From a virus (taxonomy: Duplodnaviria; Caudoviricetes), in the IMG/VR virus record IMGVR_UViG_3300037722_000240, positions 13,678 through 77,677 of that record: DNA of 64,000 bases, one strand, 5' to 3'. This document shows positions 59,153 through 64,000 of the stretch, piece by piece. The notes under the pieces are model-generated. The model did no database searches, was not told the DNA's origin, and saw only the letters and a list, made by a program, of their open reading frames with translations. Positions within the stretch are counted from its first letter, which is position 1, and each line of letters begins with the position of its first letter. The translations under genes and the position numbers were made by a program.

Positions 59153-59224
59153 TGTATGGTAGCACAACGGTAGTGCAACGCCCTGTTAAGGCGAGGGTTG
59201 TAGGTTCGAATCCTACCCATACAG
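59153..59224 (+). tRNA. tRNA-Asn(GTT)
   Basis: cloverleaf; loop CT GTT AA; TTCGAAT. Confidence 0.9.
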
Positions 59225-59301
59225 CCTACCGCCACCCGGTTTGTGCGGTATAAATATTGAATCGGGATAAAGTGAGCAGAGGCCGGCCTTTGCTAATACA
59301 C

Positions 59302-59372
59302 ACAAGAGACAGGTATGGACCGAACGCGTCTCCAAAACGTTGTTGCAGGGAGTTCGATTCTCTCCTCTTGTG
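59302..59372 (+). tRNA. tRNA-Trp(CCA), reduced D-arm
   Basis: acceptor ACAAGAG/CTCTTGT; CT CCA AA; T-arm intact. Confidence 0.7.
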
Positions 59373-59390
59373 CCTGAAAGGAGAAACACT

Positions 59391-59588
59391 ATGGAAAAGA
59401 TACTGTTGAATAAGGTAGTATTATTTTGTACAGTATGTAATACAGAATTTACTATTGATAGAGACGAAGCTATATGGTATGGAACCTCACAAGAATGTGA
59501 AATGTGTGGGGACCACGGACAAATTGAATTATATGCAACTTGTTCTAACTGTGATTTTTACTCTGTTATTAATGTATATTCTTGGTAA
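59391..59588 (+). CDS. small Cys-rich protein
   Basis: AAGGAG RBS; three CxxC. Confidence 0.7.
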   Translation: MEKILLNKVVLFCTVCNTEFTIDRDEAIWYGTSQECEMCGDHGQIELYATCSNCDFYSVINVYSW

Positions 59589-59618
59589 TAATTTTAGGGG
59601 ATAATATTCCCCTAACGT

Positions 59619-59692
59619 GTTGGGTGTAGCCAAGAGGTCTAAGGCACCTCACTGTGACTGAGGTATCGTGGGTTCGAATCCCATCACCCACC
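59619..59692 (+). tRNA. tRNA-His(GTG) with encoded G-1
   Basis: CCTCA-CT GTG AC-TGAGG; G-1 opposite C73. Confidence 0.9.
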
Positions 59693-59711
59693 CCTATTGG
59701 CAGTAAGTCAT

Positions 59712-59785
59712 TGACGGTTGGTGTAGCGGTAGCACACATAACTCTGAATTATGTGACTGAGGTTCGAATCCTTGACCGTCAACCA
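59712..59785 (+). tRNA. tRNA-Gln(CTG)
   Basis: TGACGGT/ACCGTCA; CT CTG AA; encoded CCA. Confidence 0.9.
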
Positions 59786-59798
59786 AAGGAGGACTAAA

Positions 59799-59969
59799 AT
59801 GGAAAGGATGATTATAAAATTTAAATCAGAAGTTCCAGTCAAGTGTAATGATACTATTTGTATAGTATGGGGTTTAGATTTAAAACCAAAAGCCGTCTAT
59901 GTAGAAAAAGGTGAAAAAAAGGAAATTCAAGAATTAGAATACGAAGTTATAGTTATATATGATAGCTAA
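59799..59969 (+). CDS. hypothetical protein
   Basis: AAGGAGG RBS. Confidence 0.55.
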   Translation: MERMIIKFKSEVPVKCNDTICIVWGLDLKPKAVYVEKGEKKEIQELEYEVIVIYDS

Positions 59970-59997
59970 CTTTCGGTCTGAAATAAAGGAGGTCAAA

Positions 59998-60183
59998 ATG
60001 AAAATTGAAGTTATTTTGACTTATAAAGATGGTGATGAGGATGCAGAAGAAATTATCAGCCTTTACAGAAAGCTTCGTGATGATGGTAGATTTTTAGAAT
60101 TGGCTAGTGGTGACGGAAAAGACGGTATTCATGGTCTAGATTACTGGTTGTGGTTTAAATTTATTAAGAAAGAAAATCTTTGA
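59998..60183 (+). CDS. hypothetical protein; stop codon is nt 1-3 of tRNA-Gln(TTG)
   Basis: AAGGAGG RBS. Confidence 0.6.
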   Translation: MKIEVILTYKDGDEDAEEIISLYRKLRDDGRFLELASGDGKDGIHGLDYWLWFKFIKKENL

Positions 60184-60253
60184 AGCGTAGTCTAAAGGTA
60201 GGACGCAAGGTTTTGGCCCTTGGTCAGTGTTGGTTCGACTCCAGCCGCTTCAA
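60181..60253 (+). tRNA. tRNA-Gln(TTG)
   Basis: TGAAGCG/CGCTTCA; CAAGG-TT TTG GC-CCTTG. Confidence 0.88.
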
Positions 60254-60259
60254 CCTTAT

Positions 60260-60335
60260 GGTCTATTAGGGGAGTTTGGTCGTCCCCGCTTCCCTGTCAA
60301 GGAAGAAATCGTCGGTTCAAATCCGATATAGACCG
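60260..60335 (+). tRNA. tRNA-Asp(GTC)
   Basis: GGTCTAT/ATAGACC; CT GTC AA; G73. Confidence 0.9.
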
Positions 60336-60379
60336 CCTTACATTTCTTAATATTTATCAAACCGTGAAAGGAAAGATAA

Positions 60380-60598
60380 ATGTCAACAAGAAAAGTAAAA
60401 ATAGCTTTTGAAATTGAAGTTCCATTTATTGAATATAGTAATGAAAAGATTAACAAAAAGGCAGAATCTTCTATTAAAAGATGGATAAAAGAAACATTAA
60501 GAAACGAACTTAGCTATATCCCCTTTTATGTAGAAGAATCAATTGATGGGTCACTGATAGAAGATTGTAGTAGAAAAACAAAAATTATTATGCACTGA
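60380..60598 (+). CDS. hypothetical protein
   Basis: 72 aa; AAGGA upstream. Confidence 0.6.
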   Translation: MSTRKVKIAFEIEVPFIEYSNEKINKKAESSIKRWIKETLRNELSYIPFYVEESIDGSLIEDCSRKTKIIMH

Positions 60599-60613
60599 TA
60601 ACTAGTGCATATT

Positions 60614-60689
60614 GCTCTTGTAGCCGAATTGGCATAGGCGGCGACCTCAAAAGTCGCGACATCTGGTGGTTCGAATCCACTCAGGAGCA
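60614..60689 (+). tRNA. tRNA-Leu(CAA), short variable region
   Basis: GCGAC-CT CAA AA-GTCGC; A73. Confidence 0.85.
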
Positions 60690-60696
60690 CCTAAAC

Positions 60697-60784
60697 GGTA
60701 AGTCAAGCCAACAGTTGGCGATGGCACCCGTCTTGAAAACGGGCGAGCGTAACAGCCTTAGTGGTTCGACCCCACTACTTACCG
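60697..60784 (+). tRNA. tRNA-Ser(TGA)
   Basis: GGTAAGT/ACTTACC; CT TGA AA; long variable arm; G73. Confidence 0.9.
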
Positions 60785-60789
60785 CCTAT

Positions 60790-61104
60790 GGGAGCGCAAG
60801 GGTTCGACAGGAGATTAGTAGTATAAAGTTGCAAGAAACTTTAAAATAAACGCAAAAGATTTTATTACATCTCTAGTTACCAAAATTACTGGAGCCTTCG
60901 CACCCGTTCCTCAGTTGGCGTTTGCGTAAGGTCAGTTAGACTGAAACTCACTCTTGACTCCGCTGGAGAGTTGTAGTATAATGCGGATAGCTTGTAAAAG
61001 GGTTTGTCACCTTTCCCTAACAAGGCGAAAATAAAAGGTGACTACTCTTGTAGACGCTTTATATGAAACTCTTTTGGACGCGGTTTCGATTACCGCCGCT
61101 TCCA
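60790..61104 (+). ncRNA. ssrA: tmRNA; tag reading frame 60852-60929 encodes AKDFITSLVTKITGAFAPVPQLAFA
   Basis: acceptor GGGAGCG/CGCTTCC with G3.U70 and A73; 5' TTCGAC; 3' GGACGCGG-TTCGATT; H2 pairing; ATAAAC-GCA resume context. Confidence 0.92.
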
Positions 61105-61122
61105 CCTTGAACGGAGGAGTTT

Positions 61123-61314
61123 ATGCAACTTTTTATGGTAAAGGAATATCTTGCGGGATATGTAACTATTTATTTGGTTATAGCGGAAAATGAATCCAGC
61201 GTTATTCATAAAATGAAGAAAACAAAATACTTCAATAAAAGCGCCAAGTATGAATTTTCTACTATTGATATGAATCAAGAAGTATTAAGGATAGTAGAAG
61301 TAGACGTATGGTAG
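61123..61314 (+). CDS. hypothetical protein
   Basis: GGAGGAG RBS. Confidence 0.65.
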   Translation: MQLFMVKEYLAGYVTIYLVIAENESSVIHKMKKTKYFNKSAKYEFSTIDMNQEVLRIVEVDVW

Positions 61315-61323
61315 GAGGTTATT

Positions 61324-61539
61324 ATGAGAGACGAAGCTAGAATTAAAAGAATAGTCAATATCCTATACAGAGTGTGGGAATTATATCCTGATTTAAGGAT
61401 AGGACAGCTTTTATCTATAGCCGCTACTTATGGGGATAAGAAGTTTAGTAAGGATGTATTTCCTATTGAAGATGATATTATGGAAAGCGGTCTAAAGATG
61501 ATGCTAAAGAAGTACTACGAGAATAAAACGTCTGCTTGA
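61324..61539 (+). CDS. hypothetical protein; last 10 nt lie inside tRNA-Cys
   Basis: AGGAGG RBS; MRDEARIKRI...W..YPDLRIGQL motif. Confidence 0.75.
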   Translation: MRDEARIKRIVNILYRVWELYPDLRIGQLLSIAATYGDKKFSKDVFPIEDDIMESGLKMMLKKYYENKTSA

Positions 61540-61601
61540 CCGAGAGGCAAGGTTAACACCTGCAAAGTGTTAGTACACTGGTTCGAATCCAGTAGCAGAC
61601 T
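61530..61601 (+). tRNA. tRNA-Cys(GCA)
   Basis: GTCTGCT/AGCAGAC; CT GCA AA; U73. Confidence 0.9.
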
Positions 61602-61603
61602 CC

Positions 61604-61967
61604 TTTAGCCTCGACTCTGCGCTATACAAAGGAAAAGAAATGTTACTAGAGTTTAAATGGGACATTGCGTATGACGATATAGGAATCGCTTTAGTTGTTG
61701 ATTACAACTGGAATTATCAGCGATTTGTACTTATGGCCCATTTTTTGTTTTGGGGATTAGACTTTAGAATTTACTTTGTATAGAGGAAAGTCGGCCCTAC
61801 GTTGCTTAAGGTAGGAGGCGAAAGCCAATTGCACTACCGAGGTAGCAATCCTAAATGTCTTAGCAGGTGAGCAATGCTATAATGGACTGGTTGGAGCCGC
61901 CGAAAGGCCAGCATATATGCTGAGAAAGATGCAGAGATAGAACAGAAGGCCGCTTATGGAGGTTAAA
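61604..61967 (+). ncRNA. rnpB: RNase P RNA with minimal S-domain and ORF-containing P3 insertion
   Basis: P1 TTTAGCCTC/GAGGTTAAA; P2 CTCTGC/GCAGAG; P3 CTATACAAAG/CTTTGTATAG; CR-I GAGGAAAGTC; P4 AAG(T)CGGCC/GGCCGCTT; CR-IV AGAAAGAT; CR-V ACAGAA....GCTTA. Confidence 0.88.
61640..61783 (+). CDS. 47-aa ORF nested in the P3 loop of the RNase P RNA
   Basis: AAGGA RBS; MLLEFKWDIAYDDIGIALVVDYNWNYQRFVLMAHFLFWGLDFRIYFV; TAG at 61781-61783. Confidence 0.55.
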   Translation: MLLEFKWDIAYDDIGIALVVDYNWNYQRFVLMAHFLFWGLDFRIYFV

Positions 61968-62156
61968 ATGGATAAGGTTAAATTTTTTAAGATAGAACAT
62001 AGGGACGGCGATGAATATATATTTTATTGTCCAAAATGTAGTAACAAAGTATCAACAGTTTCTTGGAAAAATATAGCAGAATGTTATAATTGTAATACTG
62101 CATACAAAGTACGGGTTGAGCATTTAATGTTTGTAGAACCCTTAGAAAAGGTTTAA
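61968..62156 (+). CDS. small Zn-ribbon protein
   Basis: CPKC...CYNC; its GGAGG RBS is the P1 3' strand of the RNase P RNA. Confidence 0.7.
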   Translation: MDKVKFFKIEHRDGDEYIFYCPKCSNKVSTVSWKNIAECYNCNTAYKVRVEHLMFVEPLEKV

Positions 62157-62158
62157 TA

Positions 62159-62791
62159 ATGCAACTAATAAGGACAATTTCATATAGTCAAGATGAGATA
62201 TTAGATGGTATAATTACTATACATTGTCCAAACGGTTTTGAGTGTGATATAACATATGGATATGGTGGCTTTTATAAGAAAATAAAAGAGCCAAGATATA
62301 AATTTGATATAGACCCAAAGAAGGAAGATGTAGTTCAAGCTAATTCAGAAAATATACCTTTACAATCCAATAGCGTAGATTCAGTAATGTTTGACCCACC
62401 TTTTGTTGTTGGCCCAAGCAAAAGTCCCGGTATCATGCGGGATAGATTTGGATGCTATAAGAATGTTTCAGAGTTGTGGGACTTCTACAACAAAACCGTG
62501 GTTGAAGCACAACGTATCCTTAGACCCAATGGTATAATGGTATTCAAATGTCAAGACACTGTTTCGGGTGGCGTAAATTGGTTTTCTCATGTTGCTATTT
62601 CAAACATGGCTGTAAAGGCTGGAATGTACCCCAAAGATTTATTTCTACTACTAGCTAAACAGCGGGTAAATAGCCCTAACATGATTAATCAGCAACACGC
62701 TAGAAAATACCATTCTTATTTTTGGGTGATTGAAAATAGGGAGAGTAGAGTAAATTATGAGTCATACTTGGAAGGACACAAAGCAGTTTAA
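62159..62791 (+). CDS. DNA adenine methyltransferase-like protein
   Basis: DITYGYGGF (motif I) and VMFDPPF (motif IV). Confidence 0.8.
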   Translation: MQLIRTISYSQDEILDGIITIHCPNGFECDITYGYGGFYKKIKEPRYKFDIDPKKEDVVQANSENIPLQSNSVDSVMFDPPFVVGPSKSPGIMRDRFGCYKNVSELWDFYNKTVVEAQRILRPNGIMVFKCQDTVSGGVNWFSHVAISNMAVKAGMYPKDLFLLLAKQRVNSPNMINQQHARKYHSYFWVIENRESRVNYESYLEGHKAV

Positions 62792-62984
62792 AGAAGAGTA
62801 TGATAAAATATATGGCTTCACTAGTACATGGCCTAGCTCTGGTAAGTGGTATAAAAAAGAGTTGCATAAGGCTAGACGACAGGTAGACAAACAGATTATA
62901 GAATTTGAATTGGAAGAAATTGATAGAGTTAGAGACGGAAAATTCTGTAACATTAGTAGAGAAGTTAATTGGAGAGGATGGTAA
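62757..62984 (+). CDS. basic hypothetical protein
   Basis: MSHTWKD...KKELHKARR pattern; GGAG upstream. Confidence 0.6.
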   Translation: MSHTWKDTKQFKEEYDKIYGFTSTWPSSGKWYKKELHKARRQVDKQIIEFELEEIDRVRDGKFCNISREVNWRGW

Positions 62985-63022
62985 TTGAAGTTAGCAAACG
63001 GAACGGTGGCAGAGAGGCTTAT

Positions 63023-63373
63023 ATGAAATTATGTGGCAGATGCGGACAAGTAAAACAAATAGATGAATTTCATAAGAATGGAACTAAGTTAGACGGAAGG
63101 CAGGCCTACTGTCGAAAATGTAATGCTGAGAATGTGAATGAAAAGCGTCTTAGAAACAGACAATGGATTAATGAATATCTATCTAATAATTCATGCATTG
63201 ATTGTGGATTTTCTGTTGTCTGTGCTTTAGATTTCGACCATGTGCGGGGAGAAAAGAAATTTACAATTGCCAGAATGAAAGAGACTAGCTATTCAATTGC
63301 ACGATTGCAGGAAGAAATAGATAAATGCGAAGTCAGATGCGCTAATTGTCACCGCATTAGACATTATGGATAG
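63023..63373 (+). CDS. HNH endonuclease
   Basis: CGRC..K...FH...CRKC N-terminus; LDFDH...CANCHRIRH. Confidence 0.85.
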   Translation: MKLCGRCGQVKQIDEFHKNGTKLDGRQAYCRKCNAENVNEKRLRNRQWINEYLSNNSCIDCGFSVVCALDFDHVRGEKKFTIARMKETSYSIARLQEEIDKCEVRCANCHRIRHYG

Positions 63374-63454
63374 GCTGACCACATTGGCGCGTGGTGGTCG
63401 CCTGCTAAGCGATTGCACCTCGTGGTGTTGGGCGTTCGAATCGCCCCCTATCCG
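63368..63454 (+). tRNA. tRNA-Ser(GCT)
   Basis: GGATAGG/CCTATCC; CT GCT AA; long variable arm; G73. Confidence 0.88.
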
Positions 63455-63665
63455 CCTCATAGCTAATGGCGTACTCGACTATAGAAGGGCACCTGTTCGA
63501 GTTAATCGTCCAATCAGGACCCTCACCAGTGTTCCTCACGCTGGTTTATCAAGAGTGAGGTCATGGGTTCCCATCGTGGATTAAATAGGCCTAGCCCATG
63601 TTGGCGAGTTTTGGCGTCGAGCAAGCCGAGTTCTCCCATGAAGAAAACTCAACTATTGCTCTTTT

Positions 63666-63737
63666 GCGGGCTTGGCGTAGTTGGTAACGTACCAGCCTTC
63701 CAAGCTGAGGTCACGGGTTCGAGTCCCGTAGCCCGCT
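63666..63737 (+). tRNA. tRNA-Gly(TCC)
   Basis: GCGGGCT/AGCCCGC; CT TCC AA; U73. Confidence 0.92.
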
Positions 63738-63807
63738 CCTTCTCTGGTGACGATGCCGGAGACTAAACTGAACATTCGTCGGGTCTGGTCCACCATACGG
63801 ACCATAT

Positions 63808-63883
63808 GCAGTCATAGCACAGTTGGTAGTGCGCTTGCTTGCCAAGCAAGAGGTCGCGAGTTCGAGACTCGCTGACTGCTCCA
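63808..63883 (+). tRNA. tRNA-Gly(GCC)
   Basis: GCAGTCA/TGACTGC; TT GCC AA; U73; encoded CCA. Confidence 0.92.
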
Positions 63884-63921
63884 AGCAGTTCCGGCCATCT
63901 GCTTTAACAAAATGGTCCCTT

Positions 63922-63996
63922 GCCGATGTAGCTCTTAACGGCTAGAGCAACCGCCTTGTAAGCGGAGGGTTGTGGGTTCGAATCCCACCTTCGGCC
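63922..63996 (+). tRNA. tRNA-Thr(TGT)
   Basis: GCCGATG/CTTCGGC; CT TGT AA; TTCGAAT. Confidence 0.85.
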
Positions 63997-64000
63997 CCTA

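What the first reader, a model, noticed from the sequence alone, without database searches (positions are those of the whole stretch)
61797..61871. RNase P RNA has a drastically reduced specificity domain
Seen: only about 66 nt (61801-61866) lie between the P5 strands. They fold into a short multibranch with a GGC-GAAA-GCC hairpin and a CTAC-CGAG-GTAG hairpin. I see no intact CR-II/CR-III (J11/12-J12/13 T-loop module). Without the P3 insert the RNA is about 220 nt. Established: type A and B RNAs use CR-II/III to read the tRNA elbow, and archaeal type T RNAs lack the S-domain. Inference: this is a minimal bacterial-type ribozyme that may have altered substrate rules suited to the odd phage tRNAs.
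Basis: partly seen in the sequence, partly recalled or inferred. Interest (0 to 1): 0.72.

Follow-up and report, generated by a model that had tools for sequence, protein, structure and literature searches.

The report
Phage RNase P lacking specificity domain
A sediment phage carries, inside its own tRNA gene cluster, a copy of the tRNA-trimming ribozyme RNase P in which the half that normally reads tRNA shape has shrunk to one tiny hairpin; dozens of phages share this conserved design, and I found no paper describing it.

Summary
Window 61604-61967 is a type-A-derived RNase P RNA (364 nt, about 225 nt without a 142-nt P3 insert). Rfam misses it. Five close relatives without the insert match RF00010 end to end (E 3e-20 to 3.5e-12). 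A model built without the window finds it at 126.6 bits, E 1.6e-30.

Covariation in 52 relatives fixes the fold (92.5% paired against 73% shuffled; 31 of 37 pairs compensatory). P5 is 61797-800/61842-45, with only 41 nt between its strands. P7 is 61810-14/61834-38 and encloses 19 nt: GA, the GGC-GAAA-GCC hairpin and AAUUGCA. No CR-II or CR-III word occurs in any member. Its last ~25 nt belong to the catalytic domain (J5/15, P15, P16, P17, L17/P6).

The catalytic domain is complete: CR-I, CR-V, P4 with bulged U, J5/15 CAA, L15 GGU, P6 pseudoknot, a GNRA P18.

The link to odd tRNAs is unsupported, because the array's 13 tRNAs have normal elbows.

Most likely it is an accessory ribozyme that works with its catalytic domain alone, probably with host RnpA, on the phage's tRNA/tmRNA transcripts. 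Activity is untested. This scan has noted the same kind of RNA on other phage DNA before.

The parts
61604..61612 (+). P1 5' strand (UUUAGCCUC). It starts right after the CC end of tRNA-Cys (61530-61603).
   Evidence: Pairs with 61959-61967 (9 bp, one G-U), read. The MFE fold gives the same helix. Relatives align to P1 of RF00010.
61615..61620 (+). P2 5' strand (CUCUGC)
   Evidence: Complements GCAGAG at 61931-36. Same position as P2 in relatives.
61623..61782 (+). P3: stem UAUACAAAG (61623-31) / CUUUGUAUA (61774-82) enclosing a 142-nt insert (61632-61773) that holds a 47-aa ORF (61640-61783)
   Evidence: In relatives the P3 region is usually about 10-30 nt. The insert is present in independent metagenome runs.
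61783..61796 (+). CR-I and P4 5' strand (GAGGAAAGUCGGCC; U61791 bulged)
   Evidence: Identical to the RF00010 consensus GAGGAAAGUC. P4 pairs in 98.1% of cells, and 4 of its 8 pairs have compensatory changes.
61797..61800 (+). P5 5' strand (CUAC)
   Evidence: Pairs with GUAG 61842-45. 98.1% paired and all 4 pairs covary. RNAalifold predicts it without my input.
61801..61809 (+). J5/7 (GUUGCUUAA); 61802-07 is the 5' strand of the P6 pseudoknot
   Evidence: UUGCUU pairs with GAGCAA 61869-74. P6 was not in the model yet pairs in 93.6% of cells, with 4 of 4 core pairs covarying.
61810..61838 (+). Vestigial S-domain: P7 (GGUAG 61810-14 / CUACC 61834-38) enclosing GA (61815-16), the hairpin GGC-GAAA-GCC (61817-26) and the junction AAUUGCA (61827-33)
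   Evidence: P7 pairs in 96.5% of cells and 4 of 5 pairs covary. The hairpin's closing G-C is invariant in 52 of 52. It takes the place of about 140 type A model positions. No CR-II/III words.
61839..61845 (+). GAG linker (61839-41) and P5 3' strand GUAG (61842-45)
   Evidence: the linker reads GAG in most members.
61846..61848 (+). J5/15 CAA (counterpart of E. coli A248/A249, next to the cleavage site)
   Evidence: Both A's are invariant in the alignment. Aligns to GCAA of RF00010.
61849..61895 (+). P15 (UCC 61849-51 / GGA 61893-95), J15/16, P16 (GUC 61857-59 / GAC 61885-87), P17 (61861-65 / 61875-79), L17 (61866-74, P6 3' strand) and L15 UGGUU (61888-92, the GGU that binds the tRNA 3' CC)
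   Evidence: P15 pairs in 96.8% and P16 in 98.1% of cells, and all pairs covary. The L15 G-G-U is invariant or at least 90% conserved. Aligned to the same type A elements by Rfam in L040.
61899..61921 (+). P18-like hairpin GCC-GAAA-GGC (61899-908) and a second hairpin AGCAU-AU-AUGCU (61910-21)
   Evidence: Read. Relatives have 0, 1 or 2 hairpins here, most with GNRA loops. Rfam aligns this position to P18 in L040.
61922..61955 (+). J18/2 (GAGAAAGAU), P2 3' strand GCAGAG (61931-36), J2/4 with CR-V AUAGAACAGAA, and P4 3' strand GGCCGCUU (61948-55)
61959..61967 (+). P1 3' strand (GAGGUUAAA). It overlaps a GGAGG Shine-Dalgarno-like site and the start of the next ORF.

Best explanation
Window 61604-61967 is a phage-encoded accessory RNase P RNA descended from bacterial type A. 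It keeps a complete catalytic domain: P1-P5, the P4 core with CR-I and CR-V, J5/15, P15 with the L15 GGU, miniature P16/P17 forming the P6 pseudoknot, and a GNRA-capped P18. Its specificity domain has collapsed to P7 plus one 3-bp hairpin, 29 nt in all. Inferred mechanism: it is co-transcribed with the phage's tRNA/tmRNA array and removes their 5' leaders the way an engineered RNase P made of the catalytic domain alone does. It would find substrates through the acceptor stem, through pairing of the encoded 3' CC with the L15 GG, through the nucleotide just 5' of the cleavage site (N-1) meeting J5/15, and probably through the host's RnpA protein binding the leader. It would not stack the tRNA elbow on the CR-II/CR-III T-loops. 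Shown here: homology, fold, conservation, genomic context. Inferred: expression, catalysis, use of host RnpA.
For: Homology: five relatives lacking the P3 insert match RF00010 over model positions 1-367 at E 3e-20 to 3.5e-12. In L040 every catalytic-domain element aligns and only P7-P14 is replaced, by 39 nt. The window belongs to that family: a leave-one-out model gives 126.6 bits, E 1.6e-30, with no non-standard pair.

Fold: 92.5% of cells pair against 73.4% in shuffles and 33-42% when partners are slid. 31 of 37 pairs have compensatory changes, including the P4 and P6 pseudoknots that were not in the model. RNAalifold alone recovers P4, P5, P7 and P16.

Selection: 52 divergent members share the module. 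A natural variant has changes only in the junction plus a C-G to U-G change in P15.

Context: 35 of 52 members have tRNAs in the fetched locus, almost all on the same strand, median distance 41 nt. The window's copy starts 1 nt after tRNA-Cys, in an array of 13 tRNAs plus a tmRNA. No dedicated promoter or terminator signal stands out.

Accessory status: Achromobacter anxifer and one Gemmataceae MAG hold a canonical rnpB plus a mini copy. The phage record has no RnpA.

Precedent: E. coli RNase P RNA without its S-domain still cleaves, about 120-fold slower, with or without C5, and needs a P6-like pairing (PMC5839562). Archaeal type T RNAs lack CR-II/III yet are described as active (PMC7191817).
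Against: There is no expression or activity data: no RNA run holds the stretch. Removing the S-domain costs E. coli RNase P RNA about two orders of magnitude in rate, so its value to a phage is not obvious. The window's 142-nt P3 insert is unique among the relatives examined and might disturb folding. The phage record is only 87% complete, so an RnpA gene could lie in the missing part.
Confidence: 0.72

Rival explanations
1. The small module is not vestigial. P7, the invariantly G-C-closed hairpin and the conserved 7-nt junction would form a new compact recognition device, for the tRNA T-arm or for a protein, giving the enzyme different substrate rules.
For: Several unpaired positions are strongly conserved: GA after P7, the hairpin's closing G-C in 52 of 52, the A before the P7 3' strand in at least 90%, and the GAG linker. 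The junction often reads U-N-N-N-A, which a T-loop-type turn would allow (my reading, untested).
Against: The array's tRNAs have normal elbows. The hairpin loop sequence and length vary freely (GAAA, UUAU, UUCG, 7-10 nt loops), so the loop is not a fixed contact. The module is too short to hold the interleaved T-loops.
Confidence: 0.15
2. It acts as a decoy or competitor: it binds the host's RnpA protein, or pre-tRNAs, and so redirects or shuts down host tRNA maturation rather than serving mainly as an enzyme.
For: No phage RnpA was found. P3 and the P4 region, where RnpA binds in bacterial holoenzymes (established knowledge), are retained.
Against: All catalytic-core nucleotides (CR-I, bulged U, CR-V, J5/15 A's, L15 GGU) are conserved across the family. 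A mere protein sponge would not need them.
Confidence: 0.08
3. It is a decaying pseudogene of a captured host rnpB.
For: Rfam finds nothing in the window even at E <= 10. There is a large deletion of P8-P14 and a 142-nt insertion in P3.
Against: The same deleted architecture is kept in 52 divergent sequences with compensatory changes in every helix. Identical copies turn up in independent runs. The Rfam miss is explained by the P3 insert, since relatives without it score E 1e-12 to 1e-20.
Confidence: 0.04

Closest known systems
Bacterial type A RNase P RNA (E. coli M1 RNA / rnpB; Rfam RF00010)
   Same: Same order of P1, P2, P3, CR-I/P4 and P5. Also shares J5/15 GCAA, P15 with the L15 GGU, P16/P17 with the P6 pseudoknot, a GNRA-capped P18, the J18/2 AGAUAAAUG-type strand and CR-V ACAGAA...GCUUA. 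Relatives match the model end to end.
   Different: P8-P14 with CR-II and CR-III (about 140 model positions) are replaced by 19 nt inside P7. A 3-nt GAG linker sits between the P7 and P5 3' strands. P15-P17 are miniaturised. The score is below Rfam's gathering cut-off (relatives 47-71 bits against 100; the window gets no hit). It is encoded by a phage inside a tRNA array, and the window's copy has a 142-nt P3 insert.
Archaeal type T RNase P RNA (Pyrobaculum and other Thermoproteaceae; Lai et al. 2010, as cited in PMC7191817 and PMC5839562)
   Same: A natural RNase P RNA in which nearly the whole S-domain, including CR-II/III, is missing while the catalytic domain and a modelled P6 remain. It is reported to be catalytically active.
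   Different: Type T is archaeal, works with archaeal proteins (Rpp30/Pop5/L7Ae), and lacks P18. The phage RNA has bacterial-type sequence, a bacterial L15 GGU loop and a P18-like GNRA hairpin, so the reduction is convergent.
Engineered E. coli catalytic-domain-only RNase P RNA (Eco CP RPR; PMC5839562)
   Same: A type A catalytic domain without the S-domain. [quoted passage not shown] This is the best functional model for how the phage RNA could work.
   Different: It is a laboratory construct, about 120-fold slower than wild type. The phage RNAs are natural, conserved, and keep P7 plus a small hairpin.
   Same: Short CR-I to CR-V spacing. L010 also lies in a phage tRNA array.
   Different: L010 keeps P8, P9 and the CR-II word ACAGAA but has lost P12-P14 and P15-P17. 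The CPR and DPANN forms score only 35-53 bits against the subgroup model, against at least 100 bits for members. These are different routes of reduction.

Membership tests
Bacterial type A RNase P RNA (RF00010) | CR-I (GAGGAAAGUC) and CR-V (ACAGAA..GCUUA) forming P4 with a bulged U | tested here: met
   61783-96 and 61942-56. P4 pairs in 98.1% of cells across 52 relatives, and 4 of its pairs covary.
Bacterial type A RNase P RNA (RF00010) | P1, P2 and P3 enclosing the core | tested here: met
   P1 61604-12/61959-67, P2 61615-20/61931-36, P3 61623-31/61774-82. Relatives align to model positions 1-367. In the window P3 carries an atypical 142-nt insert.
Bacterial type A RNase P RNA (RF00010) | J5/15 adenosines, and P15 with the L15 GGU that pairs with the tRNA 3' end | tested here: met
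   CAA 61846-48, P15 61849-51/61893-95, UGGUU 61888-92. These are invariant or at least 90% conserved, and P15 covaries.
Bacterial type A RNase P RNA (RF00010) | P16/P17 with the P6 pseudoknot (the type A hallmark, in contrast to type B) | tested here: met
   P6 is UUGCUU 61802-07 / GAGCAA 61869-74. It pairs in 93.6% of cells with 4 of 4 core pairs covarying, although it was not in the model.
Bacterial type A RNase P RNA (RF00010) | P18 hairpin with a GNRA loop | tested here: inconclusive
   GCC-GAAA-GGC at 61899-908 sits in the right place, and Rfam aligns the equivalent in L040 to P18. However, relatives have 0-2 hairpins here, and its usual receptor, P8, is absent.
Bacterial type A RNase P RNA (RF00010) | S-domain P7-P14 with CR-II (J11/12 ACAGAAA..) and CR-III (J12/13 GGGUGAAA..) | tested here: not met
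   Only P7 plus 19 nt remain. 0 of 52 members contain ACAGAA or GGGUGAAA inside P7. Rfam deletes about 140 model positions in L040.
Bacterial type A RNase P RNA (RF00010) | Score at or above Rfam's gathering cut-off (100 bits) | tested here: not met
   The window gets no hit at gathering or at E <= 10. Relatives score 47-71 bits.
Bacterial type A RNase P RNA (RF00010) | Cleaves pre-tRNA 5' leaders | not testable with these tools
   No RNA run holds the element. A biochemical assay is needed.
Archaeal type T RNase P RNA | Degenerate S-domain without CR-II/III | tested here: met
   Type T definition taken from PMC7191817.
Archaeal type T RNase P RNA | Archaeal lineage and no P18 | tested here: not met
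   Best Rfam relative is bacterial type A. It has a P18-like hairpin and sits in a tailed phage. Type T lacks P18 (PMC5839562).
   126.6 bits, E 1.6e-30, model positions 1-153.
   The window has 13 tRNAs plus a tmRNA on the + strand, and tRNA-Cys ends 1 nt upstream. 35 of 52 members have tRNAs in the locus, median gap 41 nt.

The most novel reading that the evidence does not exclude
Many tailed phages carry their own S-domain-less RNase P ribozyme, a bacterial-lineage counterpart of archaeal type T. It would be fully functional in vivo with the host's RnpA and would make maturation of the phage tRNA/tmRNA array independent of, or faster than, the host enzyme. The conserved P7, hairpin and junction stub would be a new minimal element that positions substrates or protein in place of the CR-II/III T-loop module.
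Probability: 0.3. Interest if true: 0.85.

Novelty: new variant of a known kind. Interest (0 to 1): 0.68.

Why it matters
RNase P is a textbook ribozyme, and its two-domain design (the catalytic domain cuts, the specificity domain measures the tRNA) is considered universal in bacteria. The only natural exception I could find described for cellular RNase P RNAs is archaeal type T. A conserved phage family of about 210-235-nt type A derivatives with no CR-II/III would have three consequences. First, a bacterial-type catalytic domain would be enough in nature, not just in vitro. Second, it would offer very small natural RNase P RNAs for structural and mechanistic work. Third, it would add a ribozyme to the list of translation-related genes phages carry (tRNAs, tmRNA), pointing to phage control over tRNA maturation. 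It also exposes an annotation gap: Rfam finds nothing in this window, and relatives fall below the gathering cut-off.

Tried and rejected
1. Rfam on the window found no RNase P family at gathering or at E <= 10 on 61400-62200. RF00010 and RF00011 on the whole record found none either. I attribute this to the 142-nt P3 insert plus the missing S-domain, because relatives without the insert do match.
2. blastn of 61500-62100 against GenBank phages gave no match.
3. Expression: no RNA holder is listed among public runs. This is no evidence either way.
5. I looked for CR-II/III remnants. The larger form of the module (GAGAGAAC, hairpin, CAGUAUCG) is faintly like A-NAGAA plus a loop-E AGUA/GAA motif, but it does not match the RF00010 consensus for J11/12 or J12/13. 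I left it as an unexplained motif.
6. T-loop, kink-turn and loop-E readings of the 7-nt junction could not be tested with these tools.
7. The D-arm-reduced tRNA-Trp is not called by ARAGORN even with -ps, and I did not pursue it.
8. The P3-insert ORF has no PHROG match.
10. My automatic P2/P3 parser mis-called several members, including the window. I use its P3 lengths only as a rough distribution.
11. The promoter and terminator scan was at chance level.
12. Selection bias: all relatives were collected with a pattern requiring 130-160 nt between CR-I and CR-V. The collection therefore cannot say how common full-size RNase P RNAs are in phages.

Full report
WHAT THE WINDOW IS. The window is the 3' 64 kb of a 77.7-kb IMG/VR virus record estimated at 87% complete. 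It encodes a tape measure protein, a portal, a large terminase, a DNA polymerase, a UvsX-like recombinase and a DnaB helicase. It ends in a + strand array of 13 tRNA genes plus a tmRNA. The finding lies between tRNA-Cys (61530-61603) and a small ORF followed by a DNA methyltransferase gene.

IS THERE AN RNase P RNA? Rfam says no. No RNase P family reaches its gathering score in the window, and none appears even at E <= 10 on 61400-62200. The sequence says yes. GAGGAAAGUC (61783-92) is identical to CR-I of the type A consensus, and AACAGAAGGCCGCUUA (61941-56) is CR-V. The two form P4 (AAG-U-CGGCC with GGCCG-CUU), leaving the canonical U bulged. Upstream and downstream lie P1 (61604-12/61959-67), P2 (61615-20/61931-36) and P3 (61623-31/61774-82), which the MFE fold also finds.

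RELATIVES. To get comparative evidence I scanned public collections for the CR-I/CR-V pair at this unusually short spacing of 130-160 nt. This returned 15 viral contigs, more than 120 metagenome contigs and 43 genome contigs, giving 157 unique elements. One metagenome contig (L093) carries an identical copy. The viral loci are full of tRNA genes. Five close relatives that lack the window's P3 insert match RF00010 end to end at E 3e-20 to 3.5e-12. Their scores of 47-71 bits are below the 100-bit cut-off. A covariance model built from 42 relatives without the window, with RNAalifold choosing the structure, hits 61783-61955 at 126.6 bits (E 1.6e-30) with no non-standard pair. It is the only real hit in the window. 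The element is therefore a genuine member of a family that is significantly related to bacterial type A RNase P RNA. The Rfam miss is explained by the 142-nt P3 insert combined with the missing S-domain.

THE FOLD AND THE S-DOMAIN. Rfam's alignment of relative L040 places P1-P5, J5/15 GCAA, P15, P16/17, the L15 GGGUA, P18, J18/2 and CR-V on the type A model. It deletes about 140 model positions (P7-P14), leaving 39 nt unaligned.

On a model-based alignment of 52 subgroup members, my structure pairs in 92.5% of cells. Column shuffles give 73.4%, and sliding the partners gives 33-42%. 31 of 37 pairs show compensatory changes. P5 (98.1%), P7 (96.5%), P15 (96.8%) and P16 (98.1%) all covary. So do the P4 (98.1%) and P6 (93.6%) pseudoknots, which were not part of the model. 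RNAalifold by itself recovers P4, P5, P7 and P16.

In window coordinates:
- P5 is CUAC 61797-800 with GUAG 61842-45.
- J5/7 is 61801-09, and its UUGCUU forms P6 with GAGCAA 61869-74 in L17.
- P7 is GGUAG 61810-14 with CUACC 61834-38.
- Inside P7 are GA, the hairpin GGC-GAAA-GCC (61817-26) and AAUUGCA (61827-33).
- GAG (61839-41) links P7 to P5.

The S-domain is thus 29 nt including P7, with 19 nt inside P7 and 41 nt between the P5 strands. Across the subgroup these last two figures range over 18-44 and 40-66 nt, so the window is near the minimum.

The full type A consensus shows CR-II as ACAGAAAacAgACC and CR-III as AAGGGUGAAAaGG. None of the 52 members has ACAGAA or GGGUGAAA inside P7, and 19 nt cannot hold the J11/12-P12-J12/13 module.

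In this sequence CUAC and GUAG each occur twice, so local hairpins look attractive: CUAC...GUAG at 61797-814, and CUAC-CGAG-GUAG at 61834-45. Across the family they pair in only 56% of cells against 53% in shuffles, with no excess covariation. Relatives such as L008 (P5 CAUU/AAUG, P7 GGUGG/CCACC) can form only the nested helices. Positions 61846-66 are J5/15, P15, J15/16, P16 and P17, all parts of the catalytic domain. The conclusion of a drastically reduced S-domain without CR-II/III stands and is even stronger, but the fold is a single coaxial-type stem and not a multibranch.

THE CATALYTIC DOMAIN IS COMPLETE. It has CR-I, the bulged U, the J5/15 adenosines (counterparts of E. coli A248/A249, by alignment to GCAA), and the L15 G-G-U (invariant or at least 90% conserved). 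It also has the P6 pseudoknot, the J18/2 strand and CR-V. The array's tRNA genes encode the 3' CC that L15 would pair with (tRNA-Cys ends ...CC at 61602-03).

SUBSTRATES. The 13 tRNAs have GG D-loops and GGUUCGAAUCC-type T-loops, and Rfam scores of 52-74 bits. No D-arm-reduced tRNA-Trp is called. Relatives with the same module sit among tRNAs scoring 50-79 bits. I see no evidence that the reduction is matched to unusual elbows.

HOW IT LIKELY WORKS. The element starts 1 nt after tRNA-Cys and has no convincing promoter or terminator of its own. Family members lie a median of 41 nt from a tRNA on the same strand. It is probably made from the array transcript, with its 5' end released by tRNA 3' processing (inference). 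The phage record has no RnpA. The mini form co-exists with a canonical rnpB in Achromobacter anxifer and in one Gemmataceae MAG, so it is an accessory gene.

Experiments on E. coli RNase P RNA show that removing the S-domain leaves correct cleavage at about 1% of the wild-type rate, both alone and with the C5 protein, and that a P6-like pairing matters (PMC5839562). Type T archaeal RNAs without CR-II/III are described as active (PMC7191817). I therefore read this RNA as a natural ribozyme that works with its catalytic domain alone. It would recognise the acceptor stem, the 3' CC and the leader, most likely with the host's RnpA. Expression and activity are not shown: no RNA run holds the stretch.

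A natural variant in a soil run differs inside the element only at 61827 and 61831 (both in the junction) and at 61850 (P15, C-G to U-G). This is compatible with the structure but is weak evidence.

RIVALS. A pseudogene is unlikely given the family-wide covariation. A pure RnpA decoy would not need the conserved catalytic nucleotides. It remains possible that the stub is a new recognition element. Its unpaired GA, the invariant closing G-C, the A before the P7 3' strand and the GAG linker are conserved, while the hairpin loop is free to vary. I cannot test that here.

NOVELTY. Five full-text searches and two targeted readings found no description of phage-encoded RNase P RNA or of bacterial-type RNase P RNA lacking the S-domain. 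P Finder states that the minimal type T is found only in archaeal Thermoproteaceae and never mentions phages. Subscription-only literature was not searchable. Earlier notes of this scan report the same kind of phage RNA on other genomes. I used them as leads only, and their central claims agree with what I tested here.

I class it as a new variant of a known kind. It should not be filed as a regular RF00010 member, because the S-domain and score criteria are not met.

Noticed in passing
window 61632-61773 (ORF 61640-61783): P3 carries a 142-nt insert with a 47-aa ORF preceded by an AAGGA motif. Relatives have P3 regions of about 10-30 nt. The insert is also present in independent soil and sediment runs. 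The ORF has no PHROG match, and the MFE fold extends P3 into a long imperfect helix.
   Followed up: partly
window 61956-61970: The P1 3' strand (GAGGUUAAA, 61959-67) contains GGAGG, 5 nt before an in-frame ATG (61968) of the next ORF (61956-62156, CxxC...CxxC). The end of the ribozyme and that gene's ribosome-binding site therefore overlap.
   Followed up: no
L010:10596-10802 (190-kb phage contig): A 207-nt RNase P RNA passes Rfam's type A cut-off (118.5 bits). It keeps P8, P9 and the CR-II word ACAGAA but has lost P12-P14 and P15-P17. This is a different route of reduction in another phage tRNA array.
   Followed up: partly
L184 (complete 0.9-Mb Dojkabacteria genome, G004:C1:753222-753456): The only RF00010 match in this complete CPR genome is 235 nt and 87 bits, below the cut-off. 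The cell's own RNase P RNA therefore appears reduced. It scores only 44 bits against the phage subgroup model, so it is a different kind. Several other CPR and DPANN assemblies gave similar short-spacing hits.
   Followed up: partly
L096:1631-2736; L137:734-1056; L086:1-378: Some contigs hold tandem copies. L096 has three CR-I/CR-V elements about 460 nt apart. L137 has two adjacent copies (103 and 57.5 bits). L086 has a second, cut-off copy.
   Followed up: no
L141, L144, L150, L154, L165, L169, L170, L178: Eight subgroup members, all with the larger module (GAGAGAAC, hairpin, CAGUAUCG, about 6 nt), lie on contigs binned to Gemmataceae or Planctomycetia MAGs, some with up to 16 tRNAs in 8 kb. 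In four of six such MAGs only the mini RNase P was detected.
   Followed up: partly
L011:5642-6103: A GOLLD RNA (178.9 bits) lies about 1.5 kb from a mini RNase P element in the same phage tRNA array.
   Followed up: no
window 59153-63998: Most tRNA genes of the array encode CC but not the final A of CCA (tRNA-Cys ...CC then U at 61604). Only Gln(CUG) and Gly(GCC) end in CCA in the ARAGORN output.
   Followed up: partly
window 62159-62791: Just downstream is a DNA methyltransferase gene (phrog_24333, E 4.5e-63).
   Followed up: no
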